From Patescibacteria group bacterium (GTDB lineage Bacteria > Patescibacteriota > Patescibacteriia > XYB2-FULL-38-15), in the NCBI GenBank assembly GCA_041737355.1, contig JBGSRW010000010.1:3935-67934 (forward strand): a stretch of 64,000 bases of DNA, given 5' to 3'. Numbering within the stretch: position 1 is the stretch's first letter; each line of letters opens with the position of its first letter. Shown here piece by piece: positions 12,896-36,613 of this stretch. A program made the position numbers and the translations under genes. The notes under the pieces are model-generated. The model worked only from the letters and a program-made list of their open reading frames with translations. It was not told where the DNA came from and made no database searches.

Positions 12896-12919
12896 TTTAA
12901 TTTTTTTTGAAATAAATTA

Positions 12920-14338: not shown

Positions 14339-16100
14339 TTTTTCTAAAAGCAGCAAGGTTAAAGACATTTTTAAAAAGCCCAAAGGCTTTGAGCTGAAAG
14401 AGGCAATTGTCTTTACCTATTCCCTGGAAAGCAGTTTTTTGTATGATGCCTTTTTGCCTTTTTTATGCAATAACAATACCGGCGAATGGATCAGGGATAG
14501 GTCTAACCATCTGAAAGTTTTTATAAACTCCAGCAGCCTGTCGGGCGAATTGCCTTTAAATTTATTAGGCAATATAAATCAGATTAAGACAGCTGAAAAT
14601 TCTTCTTTCCATCCTAAAATTTATTTTTTTAAATATCGAAAAGATAAAAAAGTTTTTTGTCAGATGGTTCTCGGCTCTTTCAACCTGACGGCAGACGGCT
14701 TTAATCAGAATAATGAATTCTACGCCTCGTTGTCAGGCGGGAAGAAGAACAAGTCAGGGCAGAAGCAAAAGCAGAGCTTGATAAAGTTTGTCGAGTTAGC
14801 TTTAAACGCTGCACTGGCGCTCGCTCCCAGCGAACGGAGAGAAAATCTGGCAAGAATAAAATCAATCATTGAATTTTTGGATTGGCCTGATGGGGTAGAA
14901 TTTTATTTTACCGCACCTAAATATTCAGGAAAGGAGATGGGTTTTTCGGGAAATAAATGTATTATGGTTTCTCCCTTTTGGGACGCCGCTGCCATCAACC
15001 GTTTGTCGAAGAATGCCAAACAAGTGTCATTATATTATAATTATCTATCCGAGGCCGACGCAGCGCCTTTTGAGCCGAAAAAAATAGAAGGATCAAATAA
15101 ATTTTCCTGTTTCCAGCTGAACGAAAAAAAATTAGACAAAAAGAAGCTGCACGGGAAATTATATTATTTTGGTGACGAAAAGTTCGGAAATATTTATCTT
15201 GGTTCCGCAAATTGCACGAGCAGGGCGGTTATCAGGGGGAAAAATTATGAAGCCGGCCTAGTTTTTAAGGCTAATTATCAACATTTGAAAAACTGGCTAG
15301 ACGATAAATTTAAAAAAGTTGAATTTCCCCAAAATTATTATCAAGATAAGCTAGCTGAAGACAAAAATAAAAAAGATTATGACAATGTTTATAATATGCT
15401 GGAGGCCGGGTTTTTTGTCCAAAACTCAAAAATGGCTGTAGTTATTAAAATCGAAAAACCCGAGATGTTAAAAAAATATAAGCTTACTTGTCATGACCGG
15501 CCCATTGATGATTCGCCCTTCCAAATCCCAATAGGGGAGACAAAAAATTTACCAGGCTCAATTGAAGTATTGATAAGTGAAACTTCCTACCAGTTACCAA
15601 TATCAGGTACGTATGAGCAAGAGCGGGGACCAATTAAATATCTGGATTATGAGGGCTGGTATAACTTCAAAAAAAATTACATTTCCTTGAAGTGTAATTC
15701 GCCGGAGGATCTGTTGGATTTGTATCTGGATAATATTGCCATTGATGATTTTTTTGAATTTGGCGGAGAGATGATGTTTAACAGCAATTGGCGCGAAAGA
15801 AAATTTCCTTACAAAAAATTAATGGAGCTACTTTATGGCAGCCCTGTTTTGGCAAAAATTAATTTATCTAGCAGATGCCTCAATTTTATTGAAGGCTTAG
15901 CAGCCCGGGACGATTTTGGCGAAAGAAAGAGAGGAGTTTTTTTTGCTGATTTTGAAAATTATGACAATGAAAAAGAATACCGCGATGCCTTTTTTGTTTA
16001 CTGGAAAAAATATCTGAACGAGAATAAAAAATCCCTTGACCGTGAATCGCGGATAAAAGTAAAAAAGCTGCTTGTAAAAATAGAGGCCTTGAGAAAATAA
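14331..16100 (+). CDS. Phospholipase D-family nuclease with two HKD-like motifs
   Basis: HPKIYFF...LGSFNLT and HGKLYYFGDE...LGSANCT, each HxK...GSxN, separated by about 180 aa. About 290-aa C-terminal extension. Confidence 0.7.
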   Translation: MNNFSKSSKVKDIFKKPKGFELKEAIVFTYSLESSFLYDAFLPFLCNNNTGEWIRDRSNHLKVFINSSSLSGELPLNLLGNINQIKTAENSSFHPKIYFFKYRKDKKVFCQMVLGSFNLTADGFNQNNEFYASLSGGKKNKSGQKQKQSLIKFVELALNAALALAPSERRENLARIKSIIEFLDWPDGVEFYFTAPKYSGKEMGFSGNKCIMVSPFWDAAAINRLSKNAKQVSLYYNYLSEADAAPFEPKKIEGSNKFSCFQLNEKKLDKKKLHGKLYYFGDEKFGNIYLGSANCTSRAVIRGKNYEAGLVFKANYQHLKNWLDDKFKKVEFPQNYYQDKLAEDKNKKDYDNVYNMLEAGFFVQNSKMAVVIKIEKPEMLKKYKLTCHDRPIDDSPFQIPIGETKNLPGSIEVLISETSYQLPISGTYEQERGPIKYLDYEGWYNFKKNYISLKCNSPEDLLDLYLDNIAIDDFFEFGGEMMFNSNWRERKFPYKKLMELLYGSPVLAKINLSSRCLNFIEGLAARDDFGERKRGVFFADFENYDNEKEYRDAFFVYWKKYLNENKKSLDRESRIKVKKLLVKIEALRK

Positions 16101-16109
16101 TTTTTTTAA

Positions 16110-18635
16110 ATGGAGCTATTTTCTTTCCAAAAAAAGACAGCTAAGAGGGCGATGGATCTTATGTTTGCTAAGTCTAATCCGACTGATGCGGTTTTTATAA
16201 TTGATGAAGTTGGTCTGGGAAAAACTAAAGAGGCGCTGGAAATCCTCAGAAGAAGCAGGGAGAAACTAAGGGGCAAGTTTAAAGCAATCATCATTACCCC
16301 CTCAAAAAGGCTGATTAGCCAATGGAAAAAGGAAAGCCGGGAATTTAATTCCGAAAAACAAATTTTTAACATTGAGCCAAGCGAGGCGACAAGAAAATTA
16401 TATGAAAGCGGAAAAATAACCCTTATCAACGCCGCCTTGAACTACGACCAAAAAATCAATCTAGCATTTTCCAGCGGCAATGAATTGAAAAATTTCAGGT
16501 CAACTAATTATCTGGAGCGCGAGTATATAATGTCTTTTTTTTCAAAAAGAAAAAGGGGCAAAAAATTTTTCAGGAAGCTGGGCGTTTCTCAAAATCAAAT
16601 TCCGGATGTTTACAATAAATCATTCCGAAAAATAAGCCGTAAAGACATTTCTTTGAGTGAGGCAATAAAAAGCATTAAAGATCAAACAAGTATTTCAGAG
16701 TTTAAGAAAAGATGGTTGGAAAATATAGGGGAAAGGCATAAATTTACTTCCATTGTAGTTGATGAATTCCATAATTATGTTAATTTAGCGGCTAAAAAAA
16801 ATTTAGATAAAATTTCTGGTGAGGAAAAAGAGGTCGATTATGATATCCAAATCTGGGACGAATTTTTCAGGTTGCAGGCGGATGACGGAGCTAGGAAGGT
16901 TAAAAAAATTTACTTATCAGCTACGCCGTTCAAGCCAATCAGATTGAACATCGGTCCTGAAAATCAAAATGACCCGATTTCTTATATCTTGAATGGGCTG
17001 AGTAATTCTTTCACCTATGGAGACCAGGAAAAGCTTGGCAAAAAGATTTTGAATTATAATGAGAATGTTTTAGAGATAAGAAAAAAAATAGCTTATCTAG
17101 CGAATAATCTAGGCAAGAAGGATATTAACGGAAAAGATATAGCAGAAGTTTTAAAAGATAGGGAGTTAATTGAGCTTAAGAGTAAAATAACAATAACTAA
17201 GCGGGAGATTGAAAAAATATTGAGCCGCTATTTATTGAGAAACGAAAGGAAACAAAAGAAATTTACAAGGATAACGATTGCTAAAACAATTAAAATTTCT
17301 AAAGAATTTGATAGATATATAAATCTTTTTGAAGCAATGTATCGAAGTAGATCAGTAGATCAAAGGTATGACGGCCTGCAAACCTATTTTACTTCCGGCG
17401 ATTTTTTTGACCGTTCGTATAAGCGTGAACATTATAAGGCGCTGGAAAATCTAAAGAAGAAAAGTAAATATCTTAAAAAATCTGATTTTAGAAATTATTT
17501 AAAAACGCACCCTAAATTAGAAGAGCTTAAAAAAATAATAAGAGAAGATTTGAAATGGTTCAAGTCTAAAGGCAACCCTCCTTGTTGGTTAGACGTTTAT
17601 AATCCCGAGGGGTATTCTAAGGCGCTTGTTTTTTGCGGCTATAGAGGTACACAGAATTATTTGGAAAAAGAAACAAAAAAGGAATATGAACATAAAGTTA
17701 AAAAAATATTTAAACCCTCAAATGTTTTGAAGAATACAATTGAAAAAATGTTTAAAAATATTACCGGCTATGATGGTATCGAGGAAAAACAGAGGGATAT
17801 CGTAGAAAATTTCTACGGATATCTGCCTTCGTATATTAAGAGATGGGGTTTAAGAAAAAGCGAGAGAGTTACAGCCAGGCAATTAAAGCGGTATATCAAA
17901 AAAAATAAATTGGAAGAAGTATTAAAATATTATTTTGAACGTGTTTGCGATAAAAAGCAGGAAAAATTTTTCGAAAACATTAAGGCCATTACAGAATGGA
18001 CACTGATGCAAAGCAGGCACGGCGTAATTGCCAAGTACGGAGAAATGTCAGGCGGCAAAGGAAAAAGAAGCGGGGTTGAGCGCATAGAGGATCTGCGGAC
18101 TGCCTTTAACTCCCCATTTTATCCCTACATTATGATTTCTACTAATGCTGGTTCGGAGGGGATTAGTCTGCATTCTTATTGCCGCAATGTTATCCATTAC
18201 GAACAGGATTGGATGCCAGCAACAATTGAACAAAGAAGTGGCAGGGTAGATAGGATAAATTCACTGGCGGCAAGGTTAAGAATAGAAGAGATTAAAGATA
18301 AAAATGATTTGGAAAAATTAAAGCATAGTCCCCACGCCGATCATTTACTAGAGCCAGGCAAGCCACAAGTTGAAGTTTGCGATCATTACATGCATAATAA
18401 AGATGTAAAAATAAATATATACCGGCTGGTTATGGAAGCAACCATAGACGAATATATGTATAATAGGGAGAGGGAACGTGCATTATGGGTTGATTTGTTT
18501 GTTGGCGGAGAAGATGTTAACAAAATGTTGGATTCAAGCGTCGGTTTGAATTTCAATATTTCTGATGAGAGCGTTAAATTGGAGTTAGATAAATTGATAG
18601 AGGAAATAAAAATAAAAGTAGGAGAAATAAAATAA
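16110..18635 (+). CDS. SNF2-family (SF2) helicase-like ATPase
   Basis: Motif I IIDEVGLGKT, motif II VVDEFHNY, motif III LSATPF, motif V STNAGSEGISL, motif VI DWMPATIEQRSGRVDRI (SNF2-like DWNP...Q..R..R). Confidence 0.75.
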   Translation: MELFSFQKKTAKRAMDLMFAKSNPTDAVFIIDEVGLGKTKEALEILRRSREKLRGKFKAIIITPSKRLISQWKKESREFNSEKQIFNIEPSEATRKLYESGKITLINAALNYDQKINLAFSSGNELKNFRSTNYLEREYIMSFFSKRKRGKKFFRKLGVSQNQIPDVYNKSFRKISRKDISLSEAIKSIKDQTSISEFKKRWLENIGERHKFTSIVVDEFHNYVNLAAKKNLDKISGEEKEVDYDIQIWDEFFRLQADDGARKVKKIYLSATPFKPIRLNIGPENQNDPISYILNGLSNSFTYGDQEKLGKKILNYNENVLEIRKKIAYLANNLGKKDINGKDIAEVLKDRELIELKSKITITKREIEKILSRYLLRNERKQKKFTRITIAKTIKISKEFDRYINLFEAMYRSRSVDQRYDGLQTYFTSGDFFDRSYKREHYKALENLKKKSKYLKKSDFRNYLKTHPKLEELKKIIREDLKWFKSKGNPPCWLDVYNPEGYSKALVFCGYRGTQNYLEKETKKEYEHKVKKIFKPSNVLKNTIEKMFKNITGYDGIEEKQRDIVENFYGYLPSYIKRWGLRKSERVTARQLKRYIKKNKLEEVLKYYFERVCDKKQEKFFENIKAITEWTLMQSRHGVIAKYGEMSGGKGKRSGVERIEDLRTAFNSPFYPYIMISTNAGSEGISLHSYCRNVIHYEQDWMPATIEQRSGRVDRINSLAARLRIEEIKDKNDLEKLKHSPHADHLLEPGKPQVEVCDHYMHNKDVKINIYRLVMEATIDEYMYNRERERALWVDLFVGGEDVNKMLDSSVGLNFNISDESVKLELDKLIEEIKIKVGEIK

Positions 18636-22616: not shown

Positions 22617-23411
22617 ATGAACAAAAAAATTATTTTAGCCGTCGCGGCGATTTCGTATGCCGCCATGGTCGCGGTAAATTACCTGGCCGGAGTCGGGAAA
22701 ATAAACAATGTCGGGACAGGGGCGGTTTCCGACGCTTACCGGAATCTTTTTACTCCGGCCGGCTACGCTTTCTCGATATGGGGGCTGATTTACCTGCTGC
22801 TTGGCGCTTACACCGTTTACCAGTTTGTCGCCGTCCGTAAAAACAAGGAGAAAGAAAATCTTTTTGCCGACCTTGGTAAATATTTTATTGCCACCTCGAT
22901 TCTAAACATTGCCTGGATTTTCGCCTGGCATAATTTCCAAATTGTTCTTACGGTTATCCTGATGCTCGGTCTGCTTTATTGCCTGGTCCGGATCGCCGAC
23001 CGGCTGCGCCTGGAAAATTTTTCAGCTAAAGAAAAAATATTGGTAAAACTTCCTTTCAGTATTTATTTTGGCTGGATCAGCGTGGCGACCATTGCCAATG
23101 TCACCATCTTGCTTGTGAGCCTCGGGTGGGACCGCTTTGGTTTGTCCGAACAATTCTGGACGATTGTTATACTTTTGGTCGGAGCGGCGATTGGCATCAT
23201 CAGGACGCTTTACGACAGGAATCCTTTTTACGGCCTGGTTTTTATCTGGGCTTATGCCGCGATTCTTTCAAAACATGTTTCGGCCAACGGATTTAACGGT
23301 CTTTACCAGGCAATTGTTTGGACGCTTTCCGGCTGTCTGGTTTTATTTTTTGCCGCGGAAATCATGGTTCTCTTGCGGAAAAATTTAAAACGCCCGGATC
23401 ATAGCGCGTAA
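22617..23411 (+). CDS. Multi-pass membrane protein, Trp-rich (possibly TspO-related)
   Basis: Five or six TM helices. The TspO assignment is uncertain. Confidence 0.5.
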   Translation: MNKKIILAVAAISYAAMVAVNYLAGVGKINNVGTGAVSDAYRNLFTPAGYAFSIWGLIYLLLGAYTVYQFVAVRKNKEKENLFADLGKYFIATSILNIAWIFAWHNFQIVLTVILMLGLLYCLVRIADRLRLENFSAKEKILVKLPFSIYFGWISVATIANVTILLVSLGWDRFGLSEQFWTIVILLVGAAIGIIRTLYDRNPFYGLVFIWAYAAILSKHVSANGFNGLYQAIVWTLSGCLVLFFAAEIMVLLRKNLKRPDHSA

Positions 23412-23431
23412 AATAATATTTATAAAATAAT

Positions 23432-24058
23432 ATGATCAAAAATCAAAAAGGAGTGGGAGTGATTGGGATTGTGATCCTTGCGGTTTTAATCGCGGCCGCG
23501 GCAAGCATTGTCATTTTAGCCAAAGTAAATCCGGAAAAGTTTCAGTCCGTCTCGGACAAGCTCGCAAGCATTGTTACTTCCAAGCCGCCGATCGGAAATT
23601 TGACCCCGGCCCGCGATTTGCGGGGAACCTGGATTTCTTCTTTGTCGGGCAAGGGGATGCAGTTGTCCGGACAATTTACGACAGAGAATGCCGTGACCGA
23701 TGTTTGGGAAGACGGCGACATAGAAATTAAGATCGAGAACGTGGAAAACAATATTGCCTCCGGCACGATCCGCTATTTTAATGCCTGCGGCTGGGGCACT
23801 TCGACCGTTACTATCCCCGGCCAAGGCAAGAGAGTTATTTCCGTTCCCAAAACCTGCGCGGCCGATACGGGACATCAGCCAATCGAGATAAGAGTGAGTT
23901 CGAGCGCCCTGGATTTTGGAACGGTTAAGGCGGGCGGCGTTACCGCGACCATGCAGGGCAGTTTTACTACCGATCTGATGCACGGCACCATGACCATGAC
24001 TTATCCTCCTTATGGAGCGGTAAAAGGGCTGTTCACTCTCATGCGGCAGAGAGAGTAG
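23432..24058 (+). CDS. Secreted hypothetical protein with N-terminal TM anchor
   Basis: Hydrophobic N-terminus. Confidence 0.5.
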   Translation: MIKNQKGVGVIGIVILAVLIAAAASIVILAKVNPEKFQSVSDKLASIVTSKPPIGNLTPARDLRGTWISSLSGKGMQLSGQFTTENAVTDVWEDGDIEIKIENVENNIASGTIRYFNACGWGTSTVTIPGQGKRVISVPKTCAADTGHQPIEIRVSSSALDFGTVKAGGVTATMQGSFTTDLMHGTMTMTYPPYGAVKGLFTLMRQRE

Positions 24059-24099
24059 AATGCAGCTTGTAAGTTATAATTTATATTTTTAATAAACCT

Positions 24100-24555
24100 A
24101 TGAACAAACAATTTCTAAAAGACGCGCTGTTTTGGGGGTTTATTCTTTGGCTTATCGGCTACGGATTGGGAATGGTGCTTTTTTCTCTCGTGCCGGCCTC
24201 TTATATCGGCTGGATTATCATGCCGATCGGCACGGCCCTCACCATTTGGGTGGTTCTGAAAAAAGTAAAAGGCCCGACCCTGCAATATTACCTGTCTCTG
24301 GCGGTTGTTTGGACGGCGATCGCCGTTGTCTTTGATTACTTTTTTTTGGTCAGGGCTTTCAGGCCGGCTGACGGCTATTACAAATTCGACGTCTATCTCT
24401 ATTACACCCTGACTTTCCTTATTCCGCTCGCTGTCGGCTGGATTAAAAACAGAGCGCCGGAAAAACCGGGGCAAATTTTGGAGGTTAAAAAGACCGAAGA
24501 TTTGGAAACCGTTCCTACGCCGGCCGGCGAGGAGAAAGAGCAAAAACATGAATAA
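24100..24555 (+). CDS. Membrane protein
   Basis: Four TM helices. Confidence 0.5.
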   Translation: MNKQFLKDALFWGFILWLIGYGLGMVLFSLVPASYIGWIIMPIGTALTIWVVLKKVKGPTLQYYLSLAVVWTAIAVVFDYFFLVRAFRPADGYYKFDVYLYYTLTFLIPLAVGWIKNRAPEKPGQILEVKKTEDLETVPTPAGEEKEQKHE

Positions 24556-25689: not shown

Positions 25690-25887
25690 ATGAACGGTAC
25701 AATCAAGAAAAAAACCGACAAGGGTTTCGGCTTCATCGCCGTCGAAGGCCAGGCAAAAGACCTGTTCTTCCACAGCAAATCTCTGGTCGGCGTCACTTTT
25801 GACGAACTGCAGGAAGGCGACAACGTTACCTTTGAGATGGGAGATTCCCCCAAAGGCCCGAACGCCCTCAATGTGCAGCGCGCCTAA
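25690..25887 (+). CDS. csp: Cold-shock protein (CspA family)
   Basis: KGFGFI RNP1 motif. 65 aa. Confidence 0.9.
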   Translation: MNGTIKKKTDKGFGFIAVEGQAKDLFFHSKSLVGVTFDELQEGDNVTFEMGDSPKGPNALNVQRA

Positions 25888-26034
25888 GCGCGAAAGAAAA
25901 ACTCGTCCCTCACGGGGCGGTTTTTTTTATCCCGGGGATTTGATAAAAGGGTAAAAGAGGGTTAAAATAATATAAATAGCGCCGGACGCTTAAGGTCGAC
26001 GGCCGGATTATAAAATAATTTTTTTACACAAAAT

Positions 26035-26661
26035 ATGCGCAAAAAATATATAGTTTTAGGAATTCTTTTTGTCGCGGTTTCGGCTTCTTTTTACGCTTTT
26101 GCCACAAAACCAAAAATAGTCCAGGATATGGGGAAAAAGGTAATCGAGGCGGTTTCTCCGACAACTTACGAGCCGATGTTCGCTCCGGCGCCGGCCGCGG
26201 CGGCGGGGGTTGAGACAATGGAAATCTACGCGAGAATCGGGGATATTAGAGGCGAAGGTAATGATCGCGAACACAAGGATTGGACCGAAGTTCAGTCTTT
26301 TAATTGGGAGGTCATAAAAAGCGGCAGCACTGTTAAAGAGGGAGAAGTCGTTTTGAAAATGAGAACCAACAAGTCTTCGCCAAAATTTTACGAGGCCATG
26401 CTCATCGGAAAGCATCATCCCGAAGCACAGATTGCCTTTAAAAGAACGAGTCAGTCCCAGGATTTTTTGAAGTGGACTCTGAAGGACGTGGTTATAACTT
26501 CTTACAGCACATTAAACGACCGGAGCGGAGAATCGGTTGACGAGGTGCGTTTGAAGATTTACCAAAGCGCCACGGAAGAATACACTCCGTTCAAGCCGGA
26601 CGGCAGCCCTGACGCGAAAGTAAAAGCCGGTTGGGATTTCAGTAAAGATACGGCCATATAA
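26035..26661 (+). CDS. hcp: Hcp family protein (T6SS tube protein homolog) with N-terminal signal/TM segment
   Basis: IGDIRGEGNDREHKDWTEVQSFNWEV, SSPKFYEAMLIGKHHPEAQIAF and FLKWTLKDVVITSYS align with the Hcp1 consensus. Confidence 0.8.
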   Translation: MRKKYIVLGILFVAVSASFYAFATKPKIVQDMGKKVIEAVSPTTYEPMFAPAPAAAAGVETMEIYARIGDIRGEGNDREHKDWTEVQSFNWEVIKSGSTVKEGEVVLKMRTNKSSPKFYEAMLIGKHHPEAQIAFKRTSQSQDFLKWTLKDVVITSYSTLNDRSGESVDEVRLKIYQSATEEYTPFKPDGSPDAKVKAGWDFSKDTAI

Positions 26662-26679
26662 AAAAGTTCAGAGGATAAA

Positions 26680-26708
26680 AAGCCCGCTTTTTGGCGGGCT
26701 TTTTTGTT
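26680..26708 (+). terminator. Rho-independent terminator
   Basis: gcccgc...gcgggc stem followed by T6. Confidence 0.8.
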
Positions 26709-30720: not shown

Positions 30721-31092
30721 ATGACCCTGGACAAATTAACTCCGGAAGAAGAGAGAGTCATGGTTGGCAAGGGAACCGAGCCGCCGGGAACCGGGGAATA
30801 TCTGGAAAATTTTAACGAGGGAATTTATGTCTGCCGCCGCTGCGGCGCGCCGCTTTACGAATCCAAAAGTAAATTCCGTTCGGAGTGCGGCTGGCCGAGT
30901 TTTGACGAAGAGATTGAAGGGGCGATAAAACGAATTACCGATCCGGACGGAGCGCGAACGGAAATTGTCTGTCAAAATTGTGGAGCCCATCTCGGCCATG
31001 TTTTCATCGGAGAAAAGCTTACTTCTAAGGACACGAGGCATTGTGTAAATTCGATATCTTTAAAATTTATCTCCCGAAAAGATGGACATTGA
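30721..31092 (+). CDS. msrB: Peptide-methionine (R)-S-oxide reductase
   Basis: CxxC...CGWPSF...CxxCGAHLGHVF. Confidence 0.9.
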   Translation: MTLDKLTPEEERVMVGKGTEPPGTGEYLENFNEGIYVCRRCGAPLYESKSKFRSECGWPSFDEEIEGAIKRITDPDGARTEIVCQNCGAHLGHVFIGEKLTSKDTRHCVNSISLKFISRKDGH

Positions 31093-31639
31093 TAAAAAAG
31101 AAACCGCGGTTTTCGGCGGAGGATGTTTTTGGTCGATCGAGGCAGCTTTTGGGGAGATCCGTGGCGTTCTCTCAGTCGCCGCCGGATTTGCTGGTGGAAG
31201 AAAGAAAAATCCAACCTATGAGGAGGTTTCTACCGGGCAGACCGGCTACGCCGAAGTTGTAAAAATTGAATTTGATCCGGAGATTATTTCTTATATCGGT
31301 CTTCTTACAATTTATTTTGATCTCCACGATCCAACGAGTTTGAATAGGCAAGGTAACGATATTGGGGAACAATACCGTTCGGTAATTTTTTGGACAACCG
31401 AAAAACAGAAAGCCGAGGCGGAAAAAATGATTATTGATTTGGGTATGAGCGGCCGTTATAGTCGTCCGATCGTCACGGCAGTTGAACCGCTAACCGAATT
31501 TTGGACCGCTCCGGAATATCATCAGCGCTATTTTGAAAAAAATCAGGCCAAGCCATACTGCCTCGCGGTGATTTCTCCTAAAATGAAAAAATTTAGAGAG
31601 AAATACAAGAGATATTTAAAAGATAGTCTTGATTTATAA
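31082..31639 (+). CDS. msrA: Peptide-methionine (S)-S-oxide reductase
   Basis: GGGCFWSIE active site. Overlaps msrB by 11 nt. Confidence 0.9.
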   Translation: MDIDKKETAVFGGGCFWSIEAAFGEIRGVLSVAAGFAGGRKKNPTYEEVSTGQTGYAEVVKIEFDPEIISYIGLLTIYFDLHDPTSLNRQGNDIGEQYRSVIFWTTEKQKAEAEKMIIDLGMSGRYSRPIVTAVEPLTEFWTAPEYHQRYFEKNQAKPYCLAVISPKMKKFREKYKRYLKDSLDL

Positions 31640-31660
31640 ATTATAATTTTTAAAAAACCT

Positions 31661-32803
31661 ATGAACAAAAAAATCTTTGGAGGGGTGGCGATTTTTGCCA
31701 TAGCAATGCTTTTGGCCGGGCCGGTTTTGGCGGCGGAATTCAAGGGAGGGGAAAGCGTTTCTTTCCGCCAGGGAGAAACAGTGGCCGACAATCTTTACGC
31801 GGCCGGGGGAAACCTTACCGCCGAGGGCAGTGTCGAGGGCGATTTTCTGGCGGTCGGCGGGACGATTCTTTTTACCGGCCGGGTAACAAATGACGCGGCA
31901 ATTGCCGGGGGAACCTTGAGCCTGCTCGGGGAAGTCGGCGGCGATCTGCGGGCGGCCGGCGGAAATATTTCGCTCGGCGGACCGGTCGGCGGCGAACTGA
32001 TTGTCGCTGGTGGACAAATTTCAGCGAGTTCGCGCTGCCTCGTTGAGAAGTCGGCAACGTTTGCCGGAGGAACGGTTTCTTTCGACGGCGAAACCAAAGG
32101 GAAACTGGAAATCAGAGGCGGCGAAGTAGTCGTTAATGGAAAAGTCGGTGGCGAACTTTTTGTCCAGGCCGATAAATTAACCATCGGAAAAGACGCGGTC
32201 ATCTCCGGGAATCTTAATTACGAATCGCCCGACGAGGCGCTTATTGAACAGGGTTCACAAATTTCCGGAGAAATAAATTTTAAAAAAACGGAACGGGGTG
32301 GCGGTAGCGAAGGAAGGGATTTTGCCTGGGGCGCGATGGTCGGGGGATGGTTTGTCAGGTTGCTGATAATGCTTGTACTCGGCTTGCTTCTTTTCTTTGT
32401 CTTTAAAAGAGGGACAGCGGAACTCGTTAAAAGGAATCTCGCGGAATTCGGCTGGCAGCTCTTGCGCGGTCTTGTCATTATGATTGTCGTGCCGATTGCC
32501 TCGGTCATTGCCGCGGTGACAATTATCGGACTGCCCATAGCCGGAGTCTTTATGCTTCTTTACGCTATGTTCTGGATTCTCGCCGGGGCGATAGCCGGAA
32601 TGACGGTTGGCAGTCTGGCCTGCAAGATGATTTGGAAAAAGGAGATTGAGCTTGACTGGAAAATCGTTGCCGGAGGAATTACCGCTTACTGCCTTATCAC
32701 CGCCATTCCTTATCTCGGGTGGATCTTCGCGGCGGTTTTCTGCCTTACGGCTTTTGGCGGTTGGTGGAATTTCCTTTACGAGCGGGCGATGAAAGAAAGA
32801 TAA
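31661..32803 (+). CDS. Bactofilin-like repeat protein with signal peptide and C-terminal four-TM domain
   Basis: Repeats GxVxGDLxAAGGNISLxGPVGGEL. C-terminal hydrophobic block. Confidence 0.6.
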   Translation: MNKKIFGGVAIFAIAMLLAGPVLAAEFKGGESVSFRQGETVADNLYAAGGNLTAEGSVEGDFLAVGGTILFTGRVTNDAAIAGGTLSLLGEVGGDLRAAGGNISLGGPVGGELIVAGGQISASSRCLVEKSATFAGGTVSFDGETKGKLEIRGGEVVVNGKVGGELFVQADKLTIGKDAVISGNLNYESPDEALIEQGSQISGEINFKKTERGGGSEGRDFAWGAMVGGWFVRLLIMLVLGLLLFFVFKRGTAELVKRNLAEFGWQLLRGLVIMIVVPIASVIAAVTIIGLPIAGVFMLLYAMFWILAGAIAGMTVGSLACKMIWKKEIELDWKIVAGGITAYCLITAIPYLGWIFAAVFCLTAFGGWWNFLYERAMKER

Positions 32804-32823
32804 AAAAATAATTACTTTAACCT

Positions 32824-33747
32824 ATGATTAACAAAAAACTTTTCGCGGTTTTGGGTGCGGCAGCGTTCGTGGCTTTGCTCGGGGCAAGCTGCGGAGGCGG
32901 CGGGCCGACAACGGGCGGTCCGGGCGGCGGAGGCGGTAACGGAGGCGGAGTGAATACCGTCATTACCGACATGTGCAGCCAGTTTTCTCCGGAGTGGATA
33001 AAAGAAGCGACAGGGAAAACCGTTGCTAAAACCGAAACGAGAAACAATGGAGCTTACTGCCACTACTACACCGAATACTCCGAGGATTTTTATAAATTGC
33101 CGGAGGGGAAAGTCGCTCCGGGCGGTCCGTGGTTTGCAATGAATTATGAAACAACCCTGCCCGTGGAAAATCAGAAGAAAGGTCATGAATTTCTTGACCA
33201 TAAAATCGAAACAAACCCGAAGATTGGCATGGAGCATTTTATCGCCGTTCAGGAAGACGGTTTGATCAACGAGATATATCTCGTGCTTGGAGAATCAAGT
33301 TTTGTAAGCATCAGCAGAAGTTCCGGTAAGGTTTTTAGCGAGGAAGGAATAATCGATTTTGCCGCCAAGGTCGCCGAGGTTCTGAAGAAAGGCGTGCCAA
33401 AACCAAAACAGGCGGAAAACCAAGCCGGGAGAGCCAGGGAATTTTTTCAGTATCTCTCCGATAAAAAAATCGATCAGGCTCTGGCCATGATGGACGCTGA
33501 CGCAGGGACTAAAGATGGTTGGCGGACCAATTTCAATACCATAAAATCTCTTGGCGTGAAGAGCGTGAATCCGGTATTCGAGGAGGAATGGACTTCTACC
33601 CGCCAAAGTTTCAAGTTTGACTTGGAAGTAAGCGTTACCTCGGAAGGCGAGGGTTACGGCTGGAATCAGGGGCAAAATTCAAGATGGGTTTCCCTGAAAA
33701 AAAACGGAGATATCTGGCAGATCCACGAATTGGCGAACAATCCGTAA
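32824..33747 (+). CDS. Lipoprotein, hypothetical (paralog of the 29005 gene)
   Basis: Lipobox LGASCGGGGPTTGGPGGGGG. Confidence 0.7.
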   Translation: MINKKLFAVLGAAAFVALLGASCGGGGPTTGGPGGGGGNGGGVNTVITDMCSQFSPEWIKEATGKTVAKTETRNNGAYCHYYTEYSEDFYKLPEGKVAPGGPWFAMNYETTLPVENQKKGHEFLDHKIETNPKIGMEHFIAVQEDGLINEIYLVLGESSFVSISRSSGKVFSEEGIIDFAAKVAEVLKKGVPKPKQAENQAGRAREFFQYLSDKKIDQALAMMDADAGTKDGWRTNFNTIKSLGVKSVNPVFEEEWTSTRQSFKFDLEVSVTSEGEGYGWNQGQNSRWVSLKKNGDIWQIHELANNP

Positions 33748-33765
33748 ATATTGCGAGTCCGATTT

Positions 33766-33795
33766 AAAACCCGCCTCTTCGGGCGGGTTTTTTAT
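33766..33795 (+). terminator. Rho-independent terminator
   Basis: cccgcc...ggcggg stem followed by T6. Confidence 0.8.
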
Positions 33796-33844
33796 TTAAT
33801 CTTTTTGTGCTATAATTGAGTAAATTATTATTAAGGATAAAAAT

Positions 33845-34150
33845 ATGGAAATACAAAAAATGCAGGATTTCATGAATCCGACCGAGCTTGAGAAAAAGCA
33901 TACCCCGGTAATCGAGCGGCTGGGAAACGGAGAAGTTTTGGTCAGGGTCGGCCTCGTGCCCCATCCGATGGAGGAGGCGCACCGCGTCATGTGGGTTGAG
34001 CTGTACCGGAATAAAAAACTTGTGAAACGGGAGGAATTGAAACCGGCCATGCCGGCCGAAGCGGTTTTCGAAGTGCCGGATCTGAAACCGGAAGATATTC
34101 TGGTCGCCCGCGAAGAATGCAATATCCACGGGCTTTGGGAGAGCGTTTAG
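33845..34150 (+). CDS. sor: Superoxide reductase (neelaredoxin/desulfoferrodoxin iron-binding domain)
   Basis: EKKHTPVIE...HPMEEAHRVMWVEL...CNIHGLWES ligand pattern. Confidence 0.75.
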   Translation: MEIQKMQDFMNPTELEKKHTPVIERLGNGEVLVRVGLVPHPMEEAHRVMWVELYRNKKLVKREELKPAMPAEAVFEVPDLKPEDILVAREECNIHGLWESV

Positions 34151-34176
34151 AATTTTTAATTAACTAACCATAAAAT

Positions 34177-34383
34177 ATGGTTGTGCCGATTTTATTCGGT
34201 AAGCCGATTCATCTTTGGTTCGGCCTTGTTCTCGCCCTTCTTCTCGCGGTCCAGATGACCGGGGGATTTATGATGGTAAAAAGAGGAAAAATGGAATATT
34301 TGAAATACCATAAATGGAACGCGGTCGTTCTCGGTCTTTTCGCTCTGGCCCATCTTTATTACGCCGTACGGCTTTATTTTTAA
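34177..34383 (+). CDS. Small membrane protein
   Basis: Two TM helices. Confidence 0.5.
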   Translation: MVVPILFGKPIHLWFGLVLALLLAVQMTGGFMMVKRGKMEYLKYHKWNAVVLGLFALAHLYYAVRLYF

Positions 34384-34396
34384 GTTTTTTTGGATT

Positions 34397-34810
34397 ATGA
34401 AAAAAAGTTCGATTTTATTTTTTCTTTCTGCGGTTTTGATGCTGGCCGGCGCCGGTTGCGTTTCCGGACCGAAGACCTATTCCAACGAATCTGACGCGGC
34501 TCCGGTTATCAATATCAGCGGGGCAGAAATCCCGGTTGCCGATATCCAATATAATCAGGTCACAAGTTCCGCGGAAGTGGAAATCAAAAATTTTACCTTC
34601 AGCCCAGCGAGCATGACCATCAAAAAGGGCGGTAAGGTAACCTGGACCAACCGCGATTCGGCAAAACACGACGTGAAAGGCGACTTCTGGCAGAGCGAGC
34701 TTTTAGGTAAAGACGAAAGTTTCAGTAAAATTTTTGACACGGCCGGGACTTTTGATTATCATTGCGCGCCACATCCCAATATGACCGGAAAAATAATTGT
34801 GATTGAATAA
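34397..34810 (+). CDS. Cupredoxin-domain lipoprotein (plastocyanin/amicyanin-like type-1 copper site)
   Basis: Lipobox AGAGC. H...C..HP.M.G ligands (KHDV...YHCAPHPNMTG). Confidence 0.7.
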   Translation: MKKSSILFFLSAVLMLAGAGCVSGPKTYSNESDAAPVINISGAEIPVADIQYNQVTSSAEVEIKNFTFSPASMTIKKGGKVTWTNRDSAKHDVKGDFWQSELLGKDESFSKIFDTAGTFDYHCAPHPNMTGKIIVIE

Positions 34811-34814
34811 TTTT

Positions 34815-35597
34815 ATGAAAATGTGGGTTTGTAACAATTGCGGCTACCTTCACGCCGGGAATAATCCTCCCAAGAATTGTCCGCGTTGCGGTTCCGAATC
34901 GGCGGAGTTCGATCTTACCCCGGTTAAACCTTCGTCGGAACGGGCCCGCGCCCTGAAGCCGGCGGACTTTTTGATTATCAACGGTTCGAAACACCGGTCG
35001 CACAATACCCGTCTTTTTACGGAAATGACAGCCGAAGTTTTCCGTGAGCAAAAAAAATCGCATCTGGTCATCAATTTATGCGAGTATAGAGTAGATCCCT
35101 GCTGGCATTGCTATTCCGTGAAAGAGGATCTTTGCCAGGAGCCCTGCCGGAACGGGGACGACGACATGAAATATTTTTATCCCTTGCTAAAAAAATGTAA
35201 GGGGGTTATTATTGTCTCGCCAATCAATTGGAACAACATGTCGGCGATCCTGAAGCATTTTTTGGACCGCCTGACCGCGATTCAAAACATGTTTCTGGTC
35301 AAAGGCGAGACGCCGATGCTCGGAAAAATTTACGGCATCGTTATCAACGGCCACGAAGACGGAGCTTATAAGACAGCCGCCGATATCTCGGTCTATGCGG
35401 AAAATCTTGGCATGGTTTTAGCGCCTTTCGGGATTACCTACACGACGCACGGCCGTAATTTTAAGACGGAAGAAGACCATTCTTATTTTGAAACCGACAA
35501 AAAAACCAGGAATTATGTCCGGGCGGTGGCCAACAACGTGATTAAATTTTCTTCAATAAAATTCGATTATAAAAAAATTATTCCCGCGGCGGAATAA
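34815..35597 (+). CDS. Iron-sulfur flavoprotein / NADPH-dependent FMN reductase family with N-terminal rubredoxin-like zinc ribbon
   Basis: WVCNNCGY...CPRCG. Flavodoxin-like core with a compact Cys cluster. Confidence 0.6.
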   Translation: MKMWVCNNCGYLHAGNNPPKNCPRCGSESAEFDLTPVKPSSERARALKPADFLIINGSKHRSHNTRLFTEMTAEVFREQKKSHLVINLCEYRVDPCWHCYSVKEDLCQEPCRNGDDDMKYFYPLLKKCKGVIIVSPINWNNMSAILKHFLDRLTAIQNMFLVKGETPMLGKIYGIVINGHEDGAYKTAADISVYAENLGMVLAPFGITYTTHGRNFKTEEDHSYFETDKKTRNYVRAVANNVIKFSSIKFDYKKIIPAAE

Positions 35598-35623
35598 CGG
35601 CTAATAATTAATTTTTCAAAATT

Positions 35624-35845
35624 ATGTCCGTGGAAAATTCACAAGAGAATTTTTCCAAATGCGGCTGCGAACCATGCCCGAGCTACAACGCCTGTATGAG
35701 GGGCGGGACGGAAAAATTGTACTGTGCCAAGGAAAAAAGTCATTGCGAAGTGCCGATGAAGGGATGCACTTGCATGAACTGCACCGTTCATAAGGAAAAC
35801 AATCTTAATTCCGGTTATTATTGCGTTAAAGGCTCAGCCAACTAA
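35624..35845 (+). CDS. Cys-rich small protein (10 Cys)
   Basis: CGCEPCPSYNACMRG...CEVPMKGCTCMNC. Confidence 0.5.
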   Translation: MSVENSQENFSKCGCEPCPSYNACMRGGTEKLYCAKEKSHCEVPMKGCTCMNCTVHKENNLNSGYYCVKGSAN

Positions 35846-35875
35846 TTATTAATAACTAAGTATTAATAAAAAACT

Positions 35876-36034
35876 ATGGCAGTAAAAAATGTCGGCGAAA
35901 AATATCGCTGTAATGTATGCGGCAACGAAATAACCGTCTCCGAAGTCGGGGGCGGTACCTTGGTTTGCTGCGAAGAAGAAATGGAAAATATCGACGGAGA
36001 AACGGCGGAAGAGGAAAACGAGGAAGAAGTTTAA
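35876..36034 (+). CDS. dsr: Desulforedoxin-like small protein (52 aa), not in the ORF track
   Basis: [27 protein letters not shown] matches desulforedoxin ([27 protein letters not shown]). Acidic tail. Confidence 0.65.
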   Translation: [52 protein letters not shown]

Positions 36035-36052
36035 TCGCTAAGCTTTAAAAAT

Positions 36053-36613
36053 ATGTCCAGAACCCAAGAAAATTTGAGGCGGGCGTTTGCCGGCGAATCA
36101 ATGGCCCGCAATAAATACACTTTTTTTGCCCTGAAAGCGAGAAAAGAGGGCTACGAGGGAATCGCCAGAATTTTTGAAGAGACGGCGGCCAATGAAATGG
36201 AGCACGCCGAGCGCCTGATGAGTTTTATGAAAGGCGAACCGCCGGTAACTCTCGAGGGTTACAGCGTGCCGGAGCTTTCCGGAACAGCGGAAAATCTGGT
36301 GGCCGCGGCTGCTGGCGAGCATTACGAATGGACCGATATGTATCCGTCTTTTGAAAAGATCGCCCGCGAAGAAGGGGAAAACGAAATCGCCGACGTCTTC
36401 CGTGAAATCGGAGAAGTCGAAGAACAACACGAGAAACGGTATCAGATATTGCTTGCCAAAGTCAAAGAAAAAAAAGTTTTCAAAAGCGAAGAACCGATTC
36501 GCTGGAAATGTCTGAACTGCGGTTATATCCACGAAGGAACCGAACCGCCGGCCAAGTGTCCGGCTTGCGGCGAACCGCGCGCTTTCTACGAACCTTGGTG
36601 CCAGAATTATTAG
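36053..36613 (+). CDS. rbr: Rubrerythrin
   Basis: Ferritin-like diiron domain with E...EMEH motifs. C-terminal rubredoxin CxxC...CxxC. Confidence 0.9.

What the first reader, a model, noticed from the sequence alone, without database searches (positions are those of the whole stretch)
26035..26661. Hcp (T6SS tube) homolog with an N-terminal signal/TM segment, in a genome context without any T6SS genes
Several blocks align with the Hcp1 consensus (IGDIRGE..D..HKDW.EV.SF.W.V; SSPKFYEAMLIGKHHPEAQIAFKR; FLKWTLKDVVITSYS; GSPDAKVKAGWDF). Canonical Hcp has no signal peptide. The hydrophobic N-terminus here implies Sec-dependent export or membrane anchoring. Stand-alone Hcp-like proteins in CPR-like bacteria are rarely discussed.
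Basis: partly seen in the sequence, partly recalled or inferred. Interest (0 to 1): 0.55.

Follow-up and report, generated by a model that had tools for sequence, protein, structure and literature searches.

The report
Sec-exported stand-alone Hcp-fold protein
A tiny "candidate phyla radiation" bacterium encodes a homolog of the type VI secretion tube protein Hcp that carries an export signal and has no secretion-machine genes around it. It belongs to a widespread, apparently undescribed class of exported Hcp-like proteins that are routinely mislabelled as T6SS parts.

Summary
ORF 26035-26661 (+, 208 aa) has a genuine Hcp domain at residues 61-208. Pfam T6SS_HCP scores 71 bits. The AF2 model has pLDDT above 90 and matches Hcp crystal structures at about 2 Å. 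An N-terminal leader (MRKK, 19 hydrophobic residues, AFA|T) and a 37-residue linker come before the domain.

The leader is truly translated. It is conserved under purifying selection in the only two orthologs found. The alternative start at Met32 is a non-start Val codon in both. The genome is patescibacterial (GroEL). About 60 ORFs across the 64 kb were scanned and none is a T6SS, sheath, baseplate or spike gene. The gene is monocistronic.

Among the 103 nearest single-domain relatives, 66 carry similar leaders. Six of these were checked in their genomic context, including one on an archaeal contig. None lies near T6SS genes, whereas a leaderless control sits inside a complete T6SS cluster.

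Best reading: a Sec-exported, T6SS-independent Hcp-fold protein that acts outside the membrane, probably as a ring. Cleavage versus membrane anchoring, ring formation and function are all inferred. The rest of the genome could not be searched.

Side finding: giant proteins with exactly six tandem Hcp domains.

The parts
25903..25920 (+). Terminator-like hairpin plus T-run that ends the upstream cold-shock (CSD) gene and isolates the Hcp-like gene from it
   Evidence: 7-pair stem, 5 GC pairs, TTTTTTTT tail. The CSD gene at 25690-25887 was identified.
25940..25968 (+). Sigma-70-like promoter candidate (TTGATA-17-TAAAAT) 66 nt upstream of the start codon
   Evidence: 10 of 12 matches. This is a consensus match only and is not proof of function.
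26035..26661 (+). Coding sequence of the exported Hcp-like protein (208 aa plus stop)
   Evidence: The start at 26035 is supported by ortholog conservation. It is also supported by an AT-rich, non-Shine-Dalgarno leader typical of this genome and shared by the orthologs.
26035..26103 (+). Residues 1-23: Sec-type signal peptide or signal anchor. n-region MRKK (+3), h-region Y5-A23, and A-F-A at positions -3 to -1 before T24
   Evidence: AF2 predicts a helix at 4-22. The orthologs read MNKKY...FYALA|TKP and MNKKY...FYAFA|AKP. pN is 0.11-0.27 against pS of 0.49-0.67.
26104..26214 (+). Residues 24-60: conserved linker (TKPKIVxDxGxKVIEAVxPxTYEPMFxP, then an Ala-rich stretch). It is predicted disordered and is the best-conserved segment between the window protein and its orthologs
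   Evidence: Linker identity is 68-77%, against 45-47% for the Hcp domain. pN is 0.11-0.17. pLDDT is 45-54. The motif occurs nowhere else in the window or in the 386 proteins retrieved.
26215..26658 (+). Residues 61-208: Hcp-fold beta-barrel domain with an unusually short beta2-beta3 hairpin that lacks the Gly-rich tip
   Evidence: Pfam PF05638, PDB sequence hits, AF2 pLDDT above 90 and Foldseek matches to Hcp crystals. There are 22 residues between W91 and S114, against a median of 30-32 in relatives.
26677..26704 (+). Strong intrinsic-terminator-like hairpin (12-pair stem) 16 nt after the stop codon, which makes the gene monocistronic
22617..24555 (+). Loosely conserved neighbourhood: a TspO/MBR-like membrane protein (22617-23411), a 208-aa N-terminally anchored protein of unknown family (23432-24058) and a 151-aa membrane protein (24100-24555). 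These lie near the Hcp-like gene in all three loci, but in shuffled order. No functional link has been shown
   Evidence: In L002 the 208-aa protein ends 22 nt before the Hcp-like start. In L001 the TspO-like gene ends 32 nt before it.

Best explanation
The gene encodes a T6SS-independent, Sec-exported Hcp-fold protein. It is transcribed alone from its own promoter. The positively charged, hydrophobic leader sends the nascent chain to the Sec translocon. Signal peptidase I most likely cuts after A-F-A23. This releases a 185-residue mature protein: a conserved 37-residue flexible N-terminal tail followed by a compact Hcp beta-barrel. The barrel sits on the outer face of the single membrane of a patescibacterial cell. 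There the domain probably assembles into an Hcp-type ring and serves as a surface or extracellular binding or scaffold module. The conserved tail would dock it to a partner or to the envelope.

Shown: the Hcp homology and fold; translation and selective constraint of the leader and tail; the absence of T6SS genes in 64 kb; the patescibacterial host; and the existence of a large class of similarly leadered relatives outside T6SS loci.

Inferred: actual export, cleavage, ring formation, and any binding or scaffold role.
For: - **Hcp identity.** Pfam gives 71 bits. Hcp1 has E=1.7e-14 in the PDB sequence search. The model has pLDDT above 90 and matches Hcp crystals at TMt 0.9 and 2 Å. Phage tail-tube models match far worse (E~1e-4, TM 0.3-0.6).
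- **Real leader.** All three orthologs keep the pattern M-x-K-K-Y, hydrophobic run, A-x-A. Synonymous sites are near saturation while non-synonymous change is low in residues 1-60. Codon 32, the start chosen by another gene caller (P0001), is ATG here but GTC in both orthologs. The AT-rich non-SD leader matches this genome's usual gene starts.
- **Stand-alone gene.** Terminators flank it and a promoter-like site lies upstream. Its GC content equals the window mean.
- **No T6SS context.** No T6SS, sheath, baseplate or spike genes appear in about 60 scanned ORFs. The host is a patescibacterium.
- **Class behaviour.** 66 of 103 nearest single-domain relatives have an N-terminal hydrophobic extension. 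Of 72 N-extended relatives with a hydrophobic run, 65 have a net-positive n-region and 69 have a small-x-small motif at the end of the h-region. In many, that motif directly precedes the canonical Hcp N-terminus (AxA|VDMFLKI). L009 is an archaeal contig (Ribosomal_L21e, RNA_pol_Rpb4). NCBI names place others in Chloroflexi and in a Nitrosopumilaceae archaeon. A leaderless control (P0155) lies in a complete T6SS cluster.
- **Ring inference.** Relatives occur as 2x, 3x and, most often, 6x tandem Hcp domains. A 6x protein modelled as one chain gives pTM 0.76. This fits a conserved six-fold ring as the functional unit in exported members.
Against: - No signal-peptide predictor was available. The 19-20 residue h-region is long enough to be an uncleaved membrane anchor.
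- Ring formation by this protein was not modelled.
- Its beta2-beta3 hairpin is the shortest in the class, which could weaken ring or tube contacts.
- The NCBIfam Hcp model is below its cutoff.
- Only 64 kb of the genome could be inspected.
- No conserved functional partner emerged from the gene contexts, so the proposed binding or scaffold role rests on the fold and on family architecture only.
- The subfamily with this linker is known from just three loci, so the comparative evidence is thin.
Confidence: 0.55

Rival explanations
1. Signal-anchor variant. The leader is not cleaved and instead acts as a single N-terminal transmembrane helix. The Hcp domain, alone or as a ring held by six helices, is then tethered to the outer face of the cytoplasmic membrane by the 37-residue linker.
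For: The uncharged run of 20 residues (5-24) and the predicted helix at 4-22 are long enough to span a membrane. Many other small proteins in this window have similar N-terminal anchors. The linker is strongly conserved, as expected for a tether of defined length or for a docking site.
Against: A conserved A-x-A motif followed by T/A-K-P sits exactly at the end of the helix in all three orthologs. In many relatives the same motif directly precedes the canonical Hcp N-terminus, which argues for cleavage in the class as a whole.
Confidence: 0.3
2. Ordinary cytoplasmic T6SS tube protein with a mis-called start. Translation would begin at Met32 or Met61/62, and the protein would serve a T6SS or another contractile system encoded outside the window.
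For: One public gene call (P0001, 177 aa) starts at Met32. An AGGA lies 2 nt upstream of that ATG. The rest of the genome could not be searched.
Against: Residues 1-60 are under purifying selection. Codon 32 is GTC, which is not a start codon, in both orthologs. In L002 the previous gene ends 22 nt before the full-length start. The host is a patescibacterium, and T6SS needs more than a dozen components and is described in diderms (PMC4793230). No T6SS gene is present in 64 kb. TIGR03344 is below its cutoff.
Confidence: 0.04
3. Remnant or cargo of a prophage, tailocin or extracellular contractile injection system. On this reading it is a tail-tube protein rather than an Hcp.
For: Hcp and phage tail tubes share a fold. 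A PHROG of unknown function matches (phrog_27303, E=6.7e-12).
Against: Structural matches to viral tail-tube models are weak (E~1e-4, TM 0.3-0.6, about 10% identity). Matches to Hcp crystals are much stronger (E~1e-13, TMt 0.9, 26-28% identity). No phage, sheath, baseplate, integrase or terminase genes lie nearby. GC content is not atypical. Tail-tube proteins do not carry Sec leaders (established knowledge).
Confidence: 0.04
4. Decaying, non-functional leftover of a horizontally acquired Hcp gene.
For: The distribution is patchy. Only three loci are known, although about 50 GroEL clusters at 86% identity or more exist for related organisms.
Against: The ORF is intact in all three loci, with dN/dS of about 0.1-0.26. 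It has its own promoter-like site and a strong terminator. The fold is predicted with high confidence.
Confidence: 0.04

Closest known systems
T6SS inner-tube protein Hcp/TssD (Pfam PF05638; e.g. P. aeruginosa Hcp1, PDB 1Y12)
   Same: It has the same fold and shows clear sequence homology. It shares the N-terminal (I/L)xGxxGE..D..HK motif, the SSPK helix region and the C-terminal GWD motif. The model superposes on Hcp crystals at about 2 Å.
   Different: It carries a Sec-type leader plus a conserved 37-residue tail, whereas canonical Hcp is leaderless and polymerises in the cytoplasm inside the TssBC sheath. There are no T6SS genes in 64 kb. The host is a patescibacterium. The beta2-beta3 hairpin is about 10 residues shorter and lacks the Gly-rich tip. 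It scores below the NCBIfam TIGR03344 cutoff.
PEP-CTERM-tagged Hcp-domain proteins. They are mentioned only as sequences discarded from an Hcp survey (PMC8262886, methods). An example here is P0116
   Same: These are exported Hcp-domain proteins with an N-terminal signal peptide, and they lie outside the T6SS paradigm.
   Different: They carry a C-terminal PEP-CTERM/exosortase sorting signal, which is typical of diderm exosortase systems. The window protein ends right after the Hcp domain and has no C-terminal anchor.
Other leader-bearing single-domain Hcp homologs found here (for example P0035, P0040, P0177, P0198 and P0247)
   Same: They share the architecture of signal peptide, variable linker and one Hcp domain. 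They are stand-alone genes without T6SS neighbours.
   Different: Domain identity to the window protein is only 33-39%. The linkers are unrelated: absent, PT-rich, coiled-coil or collagen-like. The window linker motif is unique to its three-member subfamily.
Phage tail-tube proteins (lambda gpV, T4 gp19, TP901-1 MTP families)
   Same: They belong to the same ancient tube-protein fold superfamily, whose members form hexameric rings (established knowledge). Weak structural matches were seen.
   Different: Identity is about 10% and TM is 0.3-0.6. The window gene has no phage context, and phage tube proteins are not Sec substrates.

Membership tests
Hcp fold / Pfam T6SS_HCP (PF05638) domain family | Significant match to the family profile above the curated threshold | tested here: met
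   71.1 bits against a cutoff of 23.5, E=1.4e-19, profile positions 1-126 of 129.
Hcp fold / Pfam T6SS_HCP (PF05638) domain family | Hcp-type beta-barrel tertiary structure | tested here: met
   The AF2 model has pLDDT above 90 for residues 61-208. The top 50 Foldseek PDB hits are Hcp structures or engineered Hcp1 fusion constructs, with TMt up to 0.90 and rmsd 1.8-2.0 Å for the best.
Functional T6SS tube protein TssD | Passes the curated NCBIfam TIGR03344 (VI_effect_Hcp1) threshold | tested here: not met
   40.1 bits against a cutoff of 58.9. The ortholog P0002 scores 41.9.
Functional T6SS tube protein TssD | Leaderless cytoplasmic protein, because the tube polymerises inside the TssBC sheath in the cytoplasm | tested here: not met
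   A conserved, selected N-terminal signal or transmembrane segment is present.
Functional T6SS tube protein TssD | Encoded with or alongside T6SS core genes (TssA-M, VgrG, ClpV; more than a dozen components, PMC4793230) | tested here: not met
   None was found among about 60 ORFs in the 64 kb window. A positive control shows what a real locus looks like (L006). The whole genome could not be tested.
Functional T6SS tube protein TssD | Host with a diderm envelope able to house the TssJLM membrane complex | tested here: not met
   GroEL places the window in Patescibacteria. YidC is the short 247-aa form. No outer-membrane biogenesis genes were seen in the window. That Patescibacteria lack an outer membrane is taken from general knowledge, not tested here.
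Functional T6SS tube protein TssD | Assembles into hexameric rings that stack into a tube | not testable with these tools
   No multimer prediction was available. The only indirect evidence is the 2x/3x/6x tandem relatives and the pTM of 0.76 for a 6x single chain. The window protein has a shortened beta2-beta3 hairpin.
Sec/signal peptidase I secretory signal peptide | Positively charged n-region, a hydrophobic h-region, and small residues at positions -3 and -1 | tested here: met
   MRKK gives a net +3, the uncharged run spans residues 5-24, and A21-F22-A23 precedes T24. The same layout is found in both orthologs.
Sec/signal peptidase I secretory signal peptide | Actual cleavage and export | not testable with these tools
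   No SignalP or DeepTMHMM was available, and no experimental data exist. The h-region length also fits an uncleaved anchor.
Lipoprotein (SPase II) or sortase/PEP-CTERM anchored surface protein | A lipobox cysteine after the h-region, or a C-terminal LPXTG or PEP-CTERM motif | tested here: not met
   The protein contains no Cys at all. It ends ...GWDFSKDTAI directly after the domain. No PEP-CTERM family hit was found.
Phage tail tube / eCIS tube protein | Best similarity to phage tube families, and a phage or eCIS gene neighbourhood | tested here: not met
   BFVD hits are weak. The only PHROG hit is a family of unknown function. There are no phage or sheath genes nearby.

The most novel reading that the evidence does not exclude
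The Hcp ring is not only a T6SS part. A large class of Hcp-fold proteins is exported through Sec and works outside the cell membrane with no contractile machine. The class includes this patescibacterial protein, relatives in Chloroflexi and in archaea, stalked forms with collagen-like or coiled-coil linkers, PEP-CTERM-anchored forms, and giant probably planctomycete-type proteins that carry exactly six Hcp domains in one chain as a covalent pseudo-hexamer. This would be an unrecognised family of extracellular ring- or tube-building or cargo-binding modules. All of them are currently auto-annotated as 'type VI secretion system tube protein'.
Probability: 0.4. Interest if true: 0.75.

Novelty: new variant of a known kind. 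Interest (0 to 1): 0.62.

Why it matters
Hcp is used as the diagnostic marker of type VI secretion, and its secretion is the standard assay for T6SS activity. If a sizeable class of Hcp-fold proteins is exported by Sec in organisms that cannot build a T6SS, three things follow.

1. Genome annotations and metagenomic surveys that count PF05638 or TIGR03344 hits overestimate how widely T6SS occurs. The organisms concerned include CPR bacteria, Chloroflexi and archaea. NCBI already names such proteins 'T6SS tube protein Hcp' in a Chloroflexi MAG and a Nitrosopumilaceae MAG.
2. The tube-protein fold has a second life outside contractile machines. This bears on how phage tails, T6SS and extracellular structures are related in evolution.
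3. For Patescibacteria, which live attached to host cells and whose surface proteins are mostly uncharacterised, a ring-forming exported protein is a concrete, testable candidate for a surface or host-interface component.

The six-domain single-chain relatives would also be natural covalent Hcp rings. These are of interest for structural biology and protein engineering, where Hcp1 is already used as a hexamerisation scaffold (PDB 4ksr, 6ap1, 7o42).

Tried and rejected
- **Genome scan, broad alignment.** A scan with the 14-sequence family alignment failed because no stretch was conserved enough. The two-sequence alignment found one extra ortholog (L002).
- **Fold search.** The afdb50 library was not installed, so the taxonomic spread of the 6x proteins could not be obtained through structure.
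- **Cluster look-up.** The listing of cluster members returned no names or organisms for ten relatives.
- **Literature.** Seven full-text searches were run on signal peptide and Hcp, Hcp-like in CPR or Planctomycetes, tandem or fused Hcp domains, Hcp in archaea or monoderms, and Patescibacteria secretion systems. None returned a paper describing exported or tandem Hcp proteins. The only trace is a methods sentence that discards PEP-CTERM Hcp genes. Boyer 2009 and the 2026 epibiont preprint were checked and found irrelevant.
- **Mis-called start.** Considered and rejected.
- **Phage tail tube.** Considered and rejected.
- **Recent horizontally acquired island.** Rejected: the gene's GC content equals the window mean.
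- **Lipoprotein or prepilin-type leader.** Rejected: there is no Cys and no G|F-x-x-x-E motif in the sequence.
- **Special kinship with the 6x proteins.** They top the phmmer list only because six domain scores add up. Per-domain identity is about 30%, no higher than to single-domain relatives.
- **Separate clade of leader-bearing Hcps.** They are only enriched as each other's nearest neighbours (47 of 66) and are interleaved with leaderless ones.
- **Linker motif elsewhere.** A search for the motif found it only in the orthologs.
Full report
**1. The observation**

The window contains an ORF at 26035-26661 on the + strand that encodes 208 residues. Pfam T6SS_HCP matches residues 65-180 over almost the whole profile (71.1 bits, cutoff 23.5, E=1.4e-19). 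A sequence search of the PDB returns Hcp proteins. The best are P. aeruginosa Hcp1 (1y12, E=1.7e-14, residues 61-204) and engineered Hcp1 fusions.

An AlphaFold2 model built from a 14-sequence alignment has pLDDT above 90 for residues 61-208, a helix at 4-22 and a low-confidence segment at 24-60. Its domain superposes on Hcp crystal structures with Foldseek E~1e-13, target-normalised TM up to 0.90 and rmsd about 2 Å. Predicted phage tail-tube structures match much more weakly (E~1e-4, TM 0.3-0.6, about 10% identity). The protein is therefore specifically Hcp-like, not just a member of the wider tube-protein fold.

The one dissenting result is NCBIfam's T6SS tube model TIGR03344, which scores 40.1 bits against a cutoff of 58.9.

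**2. Is the N-terminal segment real?**

A public gene call of the identical sequence starts at Met32 and so lacks the hydrophobic segment (P0001, 177 aa). Four observations show that the longer reading is right.

- The only two orthologs found keep the same N-terminus. They are P0002/L001 from an ENA metagenome (55% identity) and L002 from a MAG contig (52%). Their N-termini read MNKKYAVLAVLGVVVGVSFYALA|TKPKIV and MNKKYVVLAVLFVVVAVSFYAFA|AKPRIV.
- Codon-level comparison shows near-saturated synonymous change (pS 0.49-0.75) but low non-synonymous change (pN 0.11-0.27) in residues 1-23 and 24-60. These codons are therefore translated and under purifying selection.
- Codon 32 is ATG in the window but GTC in both orthologs, and GTC is not a start codon.
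- The AT-rich leader before 26035, which lacks a Shine-Dalgarno motif, is how most genes in this window start. Only 11 of 51 genes have an SD-like motif. The same kind of leader precedes both orthologs. In L002 the preceding gene ends 22 nt before this start.

**3. Anatomy**

- **Residues 1-23** have the layout of a Sec signal peptide. MRKK gives a net +3, an uncharged hydrophobic run spans residues 5-24, and A-F-A sits at -3 to -1 before T24. There is no cysteine, so it is not a lipoprotein. There is no prepilin motif and no C-terminal sorting signal.
- **Residues 24-60** form a linker (TKPKIVxDxGxKVIEAVxPxTYEPMFxP, then an Ala-rich stretch) that is predicted to be disordered. It is nevertheless the best-conserved part between the window protein and its orthologs: 68-77% identity against 45-47% for the Hcp domain. 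The motif occurs nowhere else in the window or among the 386 proteins retrieved.
- **The Hcp domain** differs from canonical Hcps mainly in a shorter beta2-beta3 hairpin. There are two 5-residue gaps relative to Hcp1 where Hcp1 has its Gly-rich tip. Only 22 residues lie between W91 and S114, against a median of 30-32 in relatives, the shortest among the leader-bearing relatives and close to the minimum overall.
- **Transcription unit.** A terminator-like hairpin at 25903-25920 follows the upstream cold-shock gene. A promoter-like site lies at 25940-25968. A 12-pair terminator hairpin at 26677-26704 follows the stop codon. The GC content of the gene (0.46-0.485) equals the window mean of 0.46, so there is no sign of recent acquisition.

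**4. Genome and context**

GroEL from the window (56578-58203) has its best named relatives in 'Patescibacteria group bacterium' MAGs at 87-91% identity. Komeilibacteria, Uhrbacteria and Kerfeldbacteria follow at about 75%. A short 247-aa YidC and nearly all genes lying on one strand fit this placement.

Pfam scans of about 60 ORFs of the window found only four kinds of gene:

- housekeeping genes (ValRS, TyrRS, ArgRS, NusA, YidC, GroEL, pyruvate kinase, a PEP-utilising enzyme, adenylosuccinate synthetase);
- an oxygen-detoxification set;
- a restriction/PLD-nuclease/helicase block;
- many small membrane or secreted proteins without family assignment.

No TssA-M, VgrG, PAAR, ClpV, sheath, baseplate or phage gene was found.

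The three orthologous loci share a loose neighbourhood: a TspO-like protein, a 208-aa anchored protein, a small membrane protein, a SAM methyltransferase and a cold-shock protein. The gene order is shuffled between them. This looks like shared ancestry rather than an operon.

**5. The wider family**

An exhaustive phmmer search of 1.84 billion representatives gave 1,940 hits. Among the best 150, 103 have a single Hcp domain. Their N-termini break down as follows:

| N-terminus of the 103 single-domain hits | Count |
|---|---|
| N-terminal extension with a strongly hydrophobic segment | 66 |
| Leaderless | 28 |
| Extension without a strongly hydrophobic segment | 9 |

Of 72 N-extended proteins with a hydrophobic run, 65 have a net-positive n-region and 69 have a small-x-small motif at its end. 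In many, that motif abuts the canonical Hcp N-terminus (for example ...AFA|AVDMFLKI). This is the pattern expected if signal peptidase releases an otherwise normal Hcp.

The linkers between leader and domain are absent, PT-rich, coiled-coil or collagen-like. Some members end in PEP-CTERM (P0116).

Six leader-bearing members were examined on their contigs.

| Locus | Contig length | Notable context |
|---|---|---|
| L003 | 10 kb | The gene sits between two pilin-like N_methyl genes |
| L004 | 6.8 kb | None |
| L005 | 7.4 kb | None |
| L008 | 810 kb | None |
| L009 | 39 kb | Archaeal contig (Ribosomal_L21e, RNA_pol_Rpb4, DUF655, PAC2) |
| L011 | 15 kb | None |

NCBI-derived names attach other members to a Chloroflexi MAG and a Nitrosopumilaceae archaeon MAG. 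Both are annotated as 'type VI secretion system tube protein Hcp' or 'Hcp family T6SS effector'.

As a control, the leaderless relative P0155 lies inside a textbook T6SS cluster containing TssK, L, M, A, B, C, Hcp, TssE, F, G, ClpV and VgrG.

Leader-bearing and leaderless domains are interleaved by similarity. For leader-bearing domains the nearest neighbour is another leader-bearing one in 47 cases and a leaderless one in 17. The leader has therefore been gained or lost repeatedly, or the sample is too sparse to resolve clades. NCBIfam has no dedicated model: all these proteins hit only TIGR03344.

**6. Tandem relatives**

The top-scoring hits are giant proteins of 700-3,650 aa. A local hmmsearch resolves them into exactly six consecutive Hcp domains in about 30 cases. 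A handful have two or three, and a few have four or five domains on what look like truncated sequences. Two, three and six are the divisors of the six-fold Hcp ring.

An AF2 model of one six-domain protein (P0007, 1,068 aa) has pTM 0.76 and mean pLDDT 77. That is high for six domains joined by loops and implies a fixed mutual arrangement. I could not inspect the coordinates, so ring closure is inferred.

Their N-termini (..LExLEDRxLLS..) and the neighbours of P0007 (DUF7133/HEAT/cytochrome c giant protein, ECF sigma factor) suggest Planctomycetes-like hosts, from my own recollection of such proteins. No T6SS genes lie within up to 10 kb on each side.

These proteins rank first only because six domain scores add up. 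Per-domain identity to the window protein is about 30%, no closer than single-domain relatives.

**7. Mechanism**

*Shown:* an Hcp-fold domain; a translated, selected Sec-type leader and conserved tail; a monocistronic gene; a patescibacterial host; no T6SS genes in 64 kb; and a large class of similarly built relatives outside T6SS loci, including in archaea.

*Inferred:* the leader directs Sec translocation. Signal peptidase I probably cleaves after AFA23; the alternative is an uncleaved anchor. The domain then forms an Hcp-type ring on the outer side of the membrane.

A leader is incompatible with the canonical role, because the T6SS tube polymerises in the cytoplasm inside the sheath (established knowledge). 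In Hcp1 fusion constructs the partner is attached at the Hcp N-terminus (chain positions), and such constructs use Hcp1 as a hexamerisation scaffold (general knowledge). By analogy, six 37-residue N-terminal tails plausibly emerge on one ring face. There they could dock the ring to a partner or to the envelope and hinder head-to-tail stacking into long tubes. The shortened hairpin points the same way. This step is speculative.

The family-wide architecture of leader, stalk and Hcp head suggests a displayed binding or scaffold module. Hcp's documented ability to hold small proteins in its lumen makes cargo binding a reasonable guess (established knowledge of T6SS Hcp as a receptor and chaperone of substrates). 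I put 0.55 on the core statement: exported, T6SS-independent, acting outside the membrane, probably as a ring. I put 0.3 on the anchored variant of the same idea. Mis-called start, phage remnant and decaying gene each get a few per cent.

**8. Comparison with what is known, and novelty**

The protein is a member of the Hcp domain family; both the profile test and the fold test are met. It fails every testable criterion for being a functional T6SS tube subunit:

- It scores below the curated TIGR03344 cutoff.
- It has a leader, whereas T6SS Hcp is leaderless.
- Its genomic context lacks T6SS genes.
- Its host envelope is not of the diderm type that houses a T6SS.

Seven full-text searches of the held library found no description of Sec-exported, archaeal or monoderm, or tandem Hcp proteins. 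The only trace is a methods sentence in a large Hcp survey that removed Hcp genes carrying PEP-CTERM signals (PMC8262886). The library lacks most subscription-journal papers, so prior description cannot be excluded.

I class the finding as a new variant of a known kind and score its interest at 0.62. A T6SS specialist would be surprised by Sec-exported Hcps in CPR bacteria and archaea, and the annotation consequences are practical. However, the function is unknown, and export, cleavage and ring formation remain untested.

**9. Limits**

- No signal-peptide predictor was available.
- No multimer modelling was possible.
- Model coordinates could not be inspected.
- Only 64 kb of the genome was available.
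- The specific subfamily is known from just three loci, two of them on contigs shorter than 6 kb.
- Taxonomic labels of relatives come from MAG annotations. One of them is evidently wrong: L002 is labelled Gammaproteobacteria but is syntenic with this patescibacterial window.

Noticed in passing
Proteins P0003-P0025 and others. Example locus L010:10001-13207 (P0007): About 30 giant proteins (700-3,650 aa) carry exactly six tandem Hcp domains, and a few carry two or three, which are the divisors of six. An AF2 model of a 1,068-aa example has pTM 0.76, which fits a single-chain pseudo-hexameric Hcp ring. Their N-termini carry a ..LExLEDRxLLS.. motif. No T6SS genes lie near P0007. No paper describing this architecture was found.
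   Followed up: partly
L009:8437-9069 (P0040), and P0198: Signal-peptide-bearing Hcp homologs occur on an archaeal contig (Ribosomal_L21e, RNA_pol_Rpb4, DUF655 and PAC2 neighbours). One also occurs in a MAG named Nitrosopumilaceae archaeon, where it is annotated as an 'Hcp family type VI secretion system effector'. Archaea are not known to have a T6SS.
   Followed up: partly
L003:2895-5288: One leader-bearing Hcp homolog (P0177) sits between two genes with type IV pilin N-terminal methylation motifs (PF07963). The trio is inserted between the two halves of a split coaBC (Flavoprotein / DFP). This hints at a possible link between exported Hcp-like proteins and pilus-like systems, but it was seen only once.
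   Followed up: no
L005:1657-2529 (P0247); also P0208, P0141, P0144, P0029: Some exported Hcp homologs have collagen-like (G-P-x)n or coiled-coil stalks between the signal peptide and the Hcp domain. This suggests trimeric stalks carrying a ring-forming head.
   Followed up: no
L002 (CAYZNO010000047.1, 1-5701): This contig belongs to a MAG titled 'uncultured Gammaproteobacteria bacterium'. It is syntenic with the patescibacterial window and closely similar to it (methyltransferase, TspO-like protein, membrane proteins, Hcp-like gene). The bin is probably mislabelled or contaminated.
   Followed up: partly
window 26128 (Met32), versus P0001: A public gene call of the identical sequence starts at Met32 and so removes the signal peptide. 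Automated start calling can therefore hide exported Hcp homologs in genomes with AT-rich, non-Shine-Dalgarno leaders. Only 11 of 51 genes here have an SD-like motif.
   Followed up: yes
window 9391-18635: A defence-like block holds a Type ISP restriction-modification enzyme (1,028 aa), two unassigned ORFs, a two-domain PLD/NgoFVII-like nuclease (589 aa) and a ResIII/SNF2-like helicase (841 aa). Markedly low GC (0.33-0.40) at 18.3-19.5 kb, just downstream, suggests an acquired island.
   Followed up: no
window 30721-36613: A cluster of oxidative-stress genes typical of an anaerobe: MsrB, MsrA, desulfoferrodoxin (33845-34150), a cupredoxin, a rubredoxin-flavoprotein fusion and rubrerythrin.
   Followed up: no
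window 23432-24058: A 208-aa protein with an N-terminal anchor and a beta-rich domain has no Pfam or PHROG match. It is conserved in L002, where it lies directly upstream of the Hcp-like gene with a 22-nt gap. It is a possible partner, but this was not tested.
   Followed up: partly
window 31661-32803 and 48170-48592: Two bactofilin-domain genes. One is a 380-aa protein with only a weak bactofilin match.
   Followed up: no
window 979-2271: A peptidase M23 protein is fused to three MopE-like putative metal-binding motifs. This is an unusual combination for a cell-wall hydrolase.
   Followed up: no
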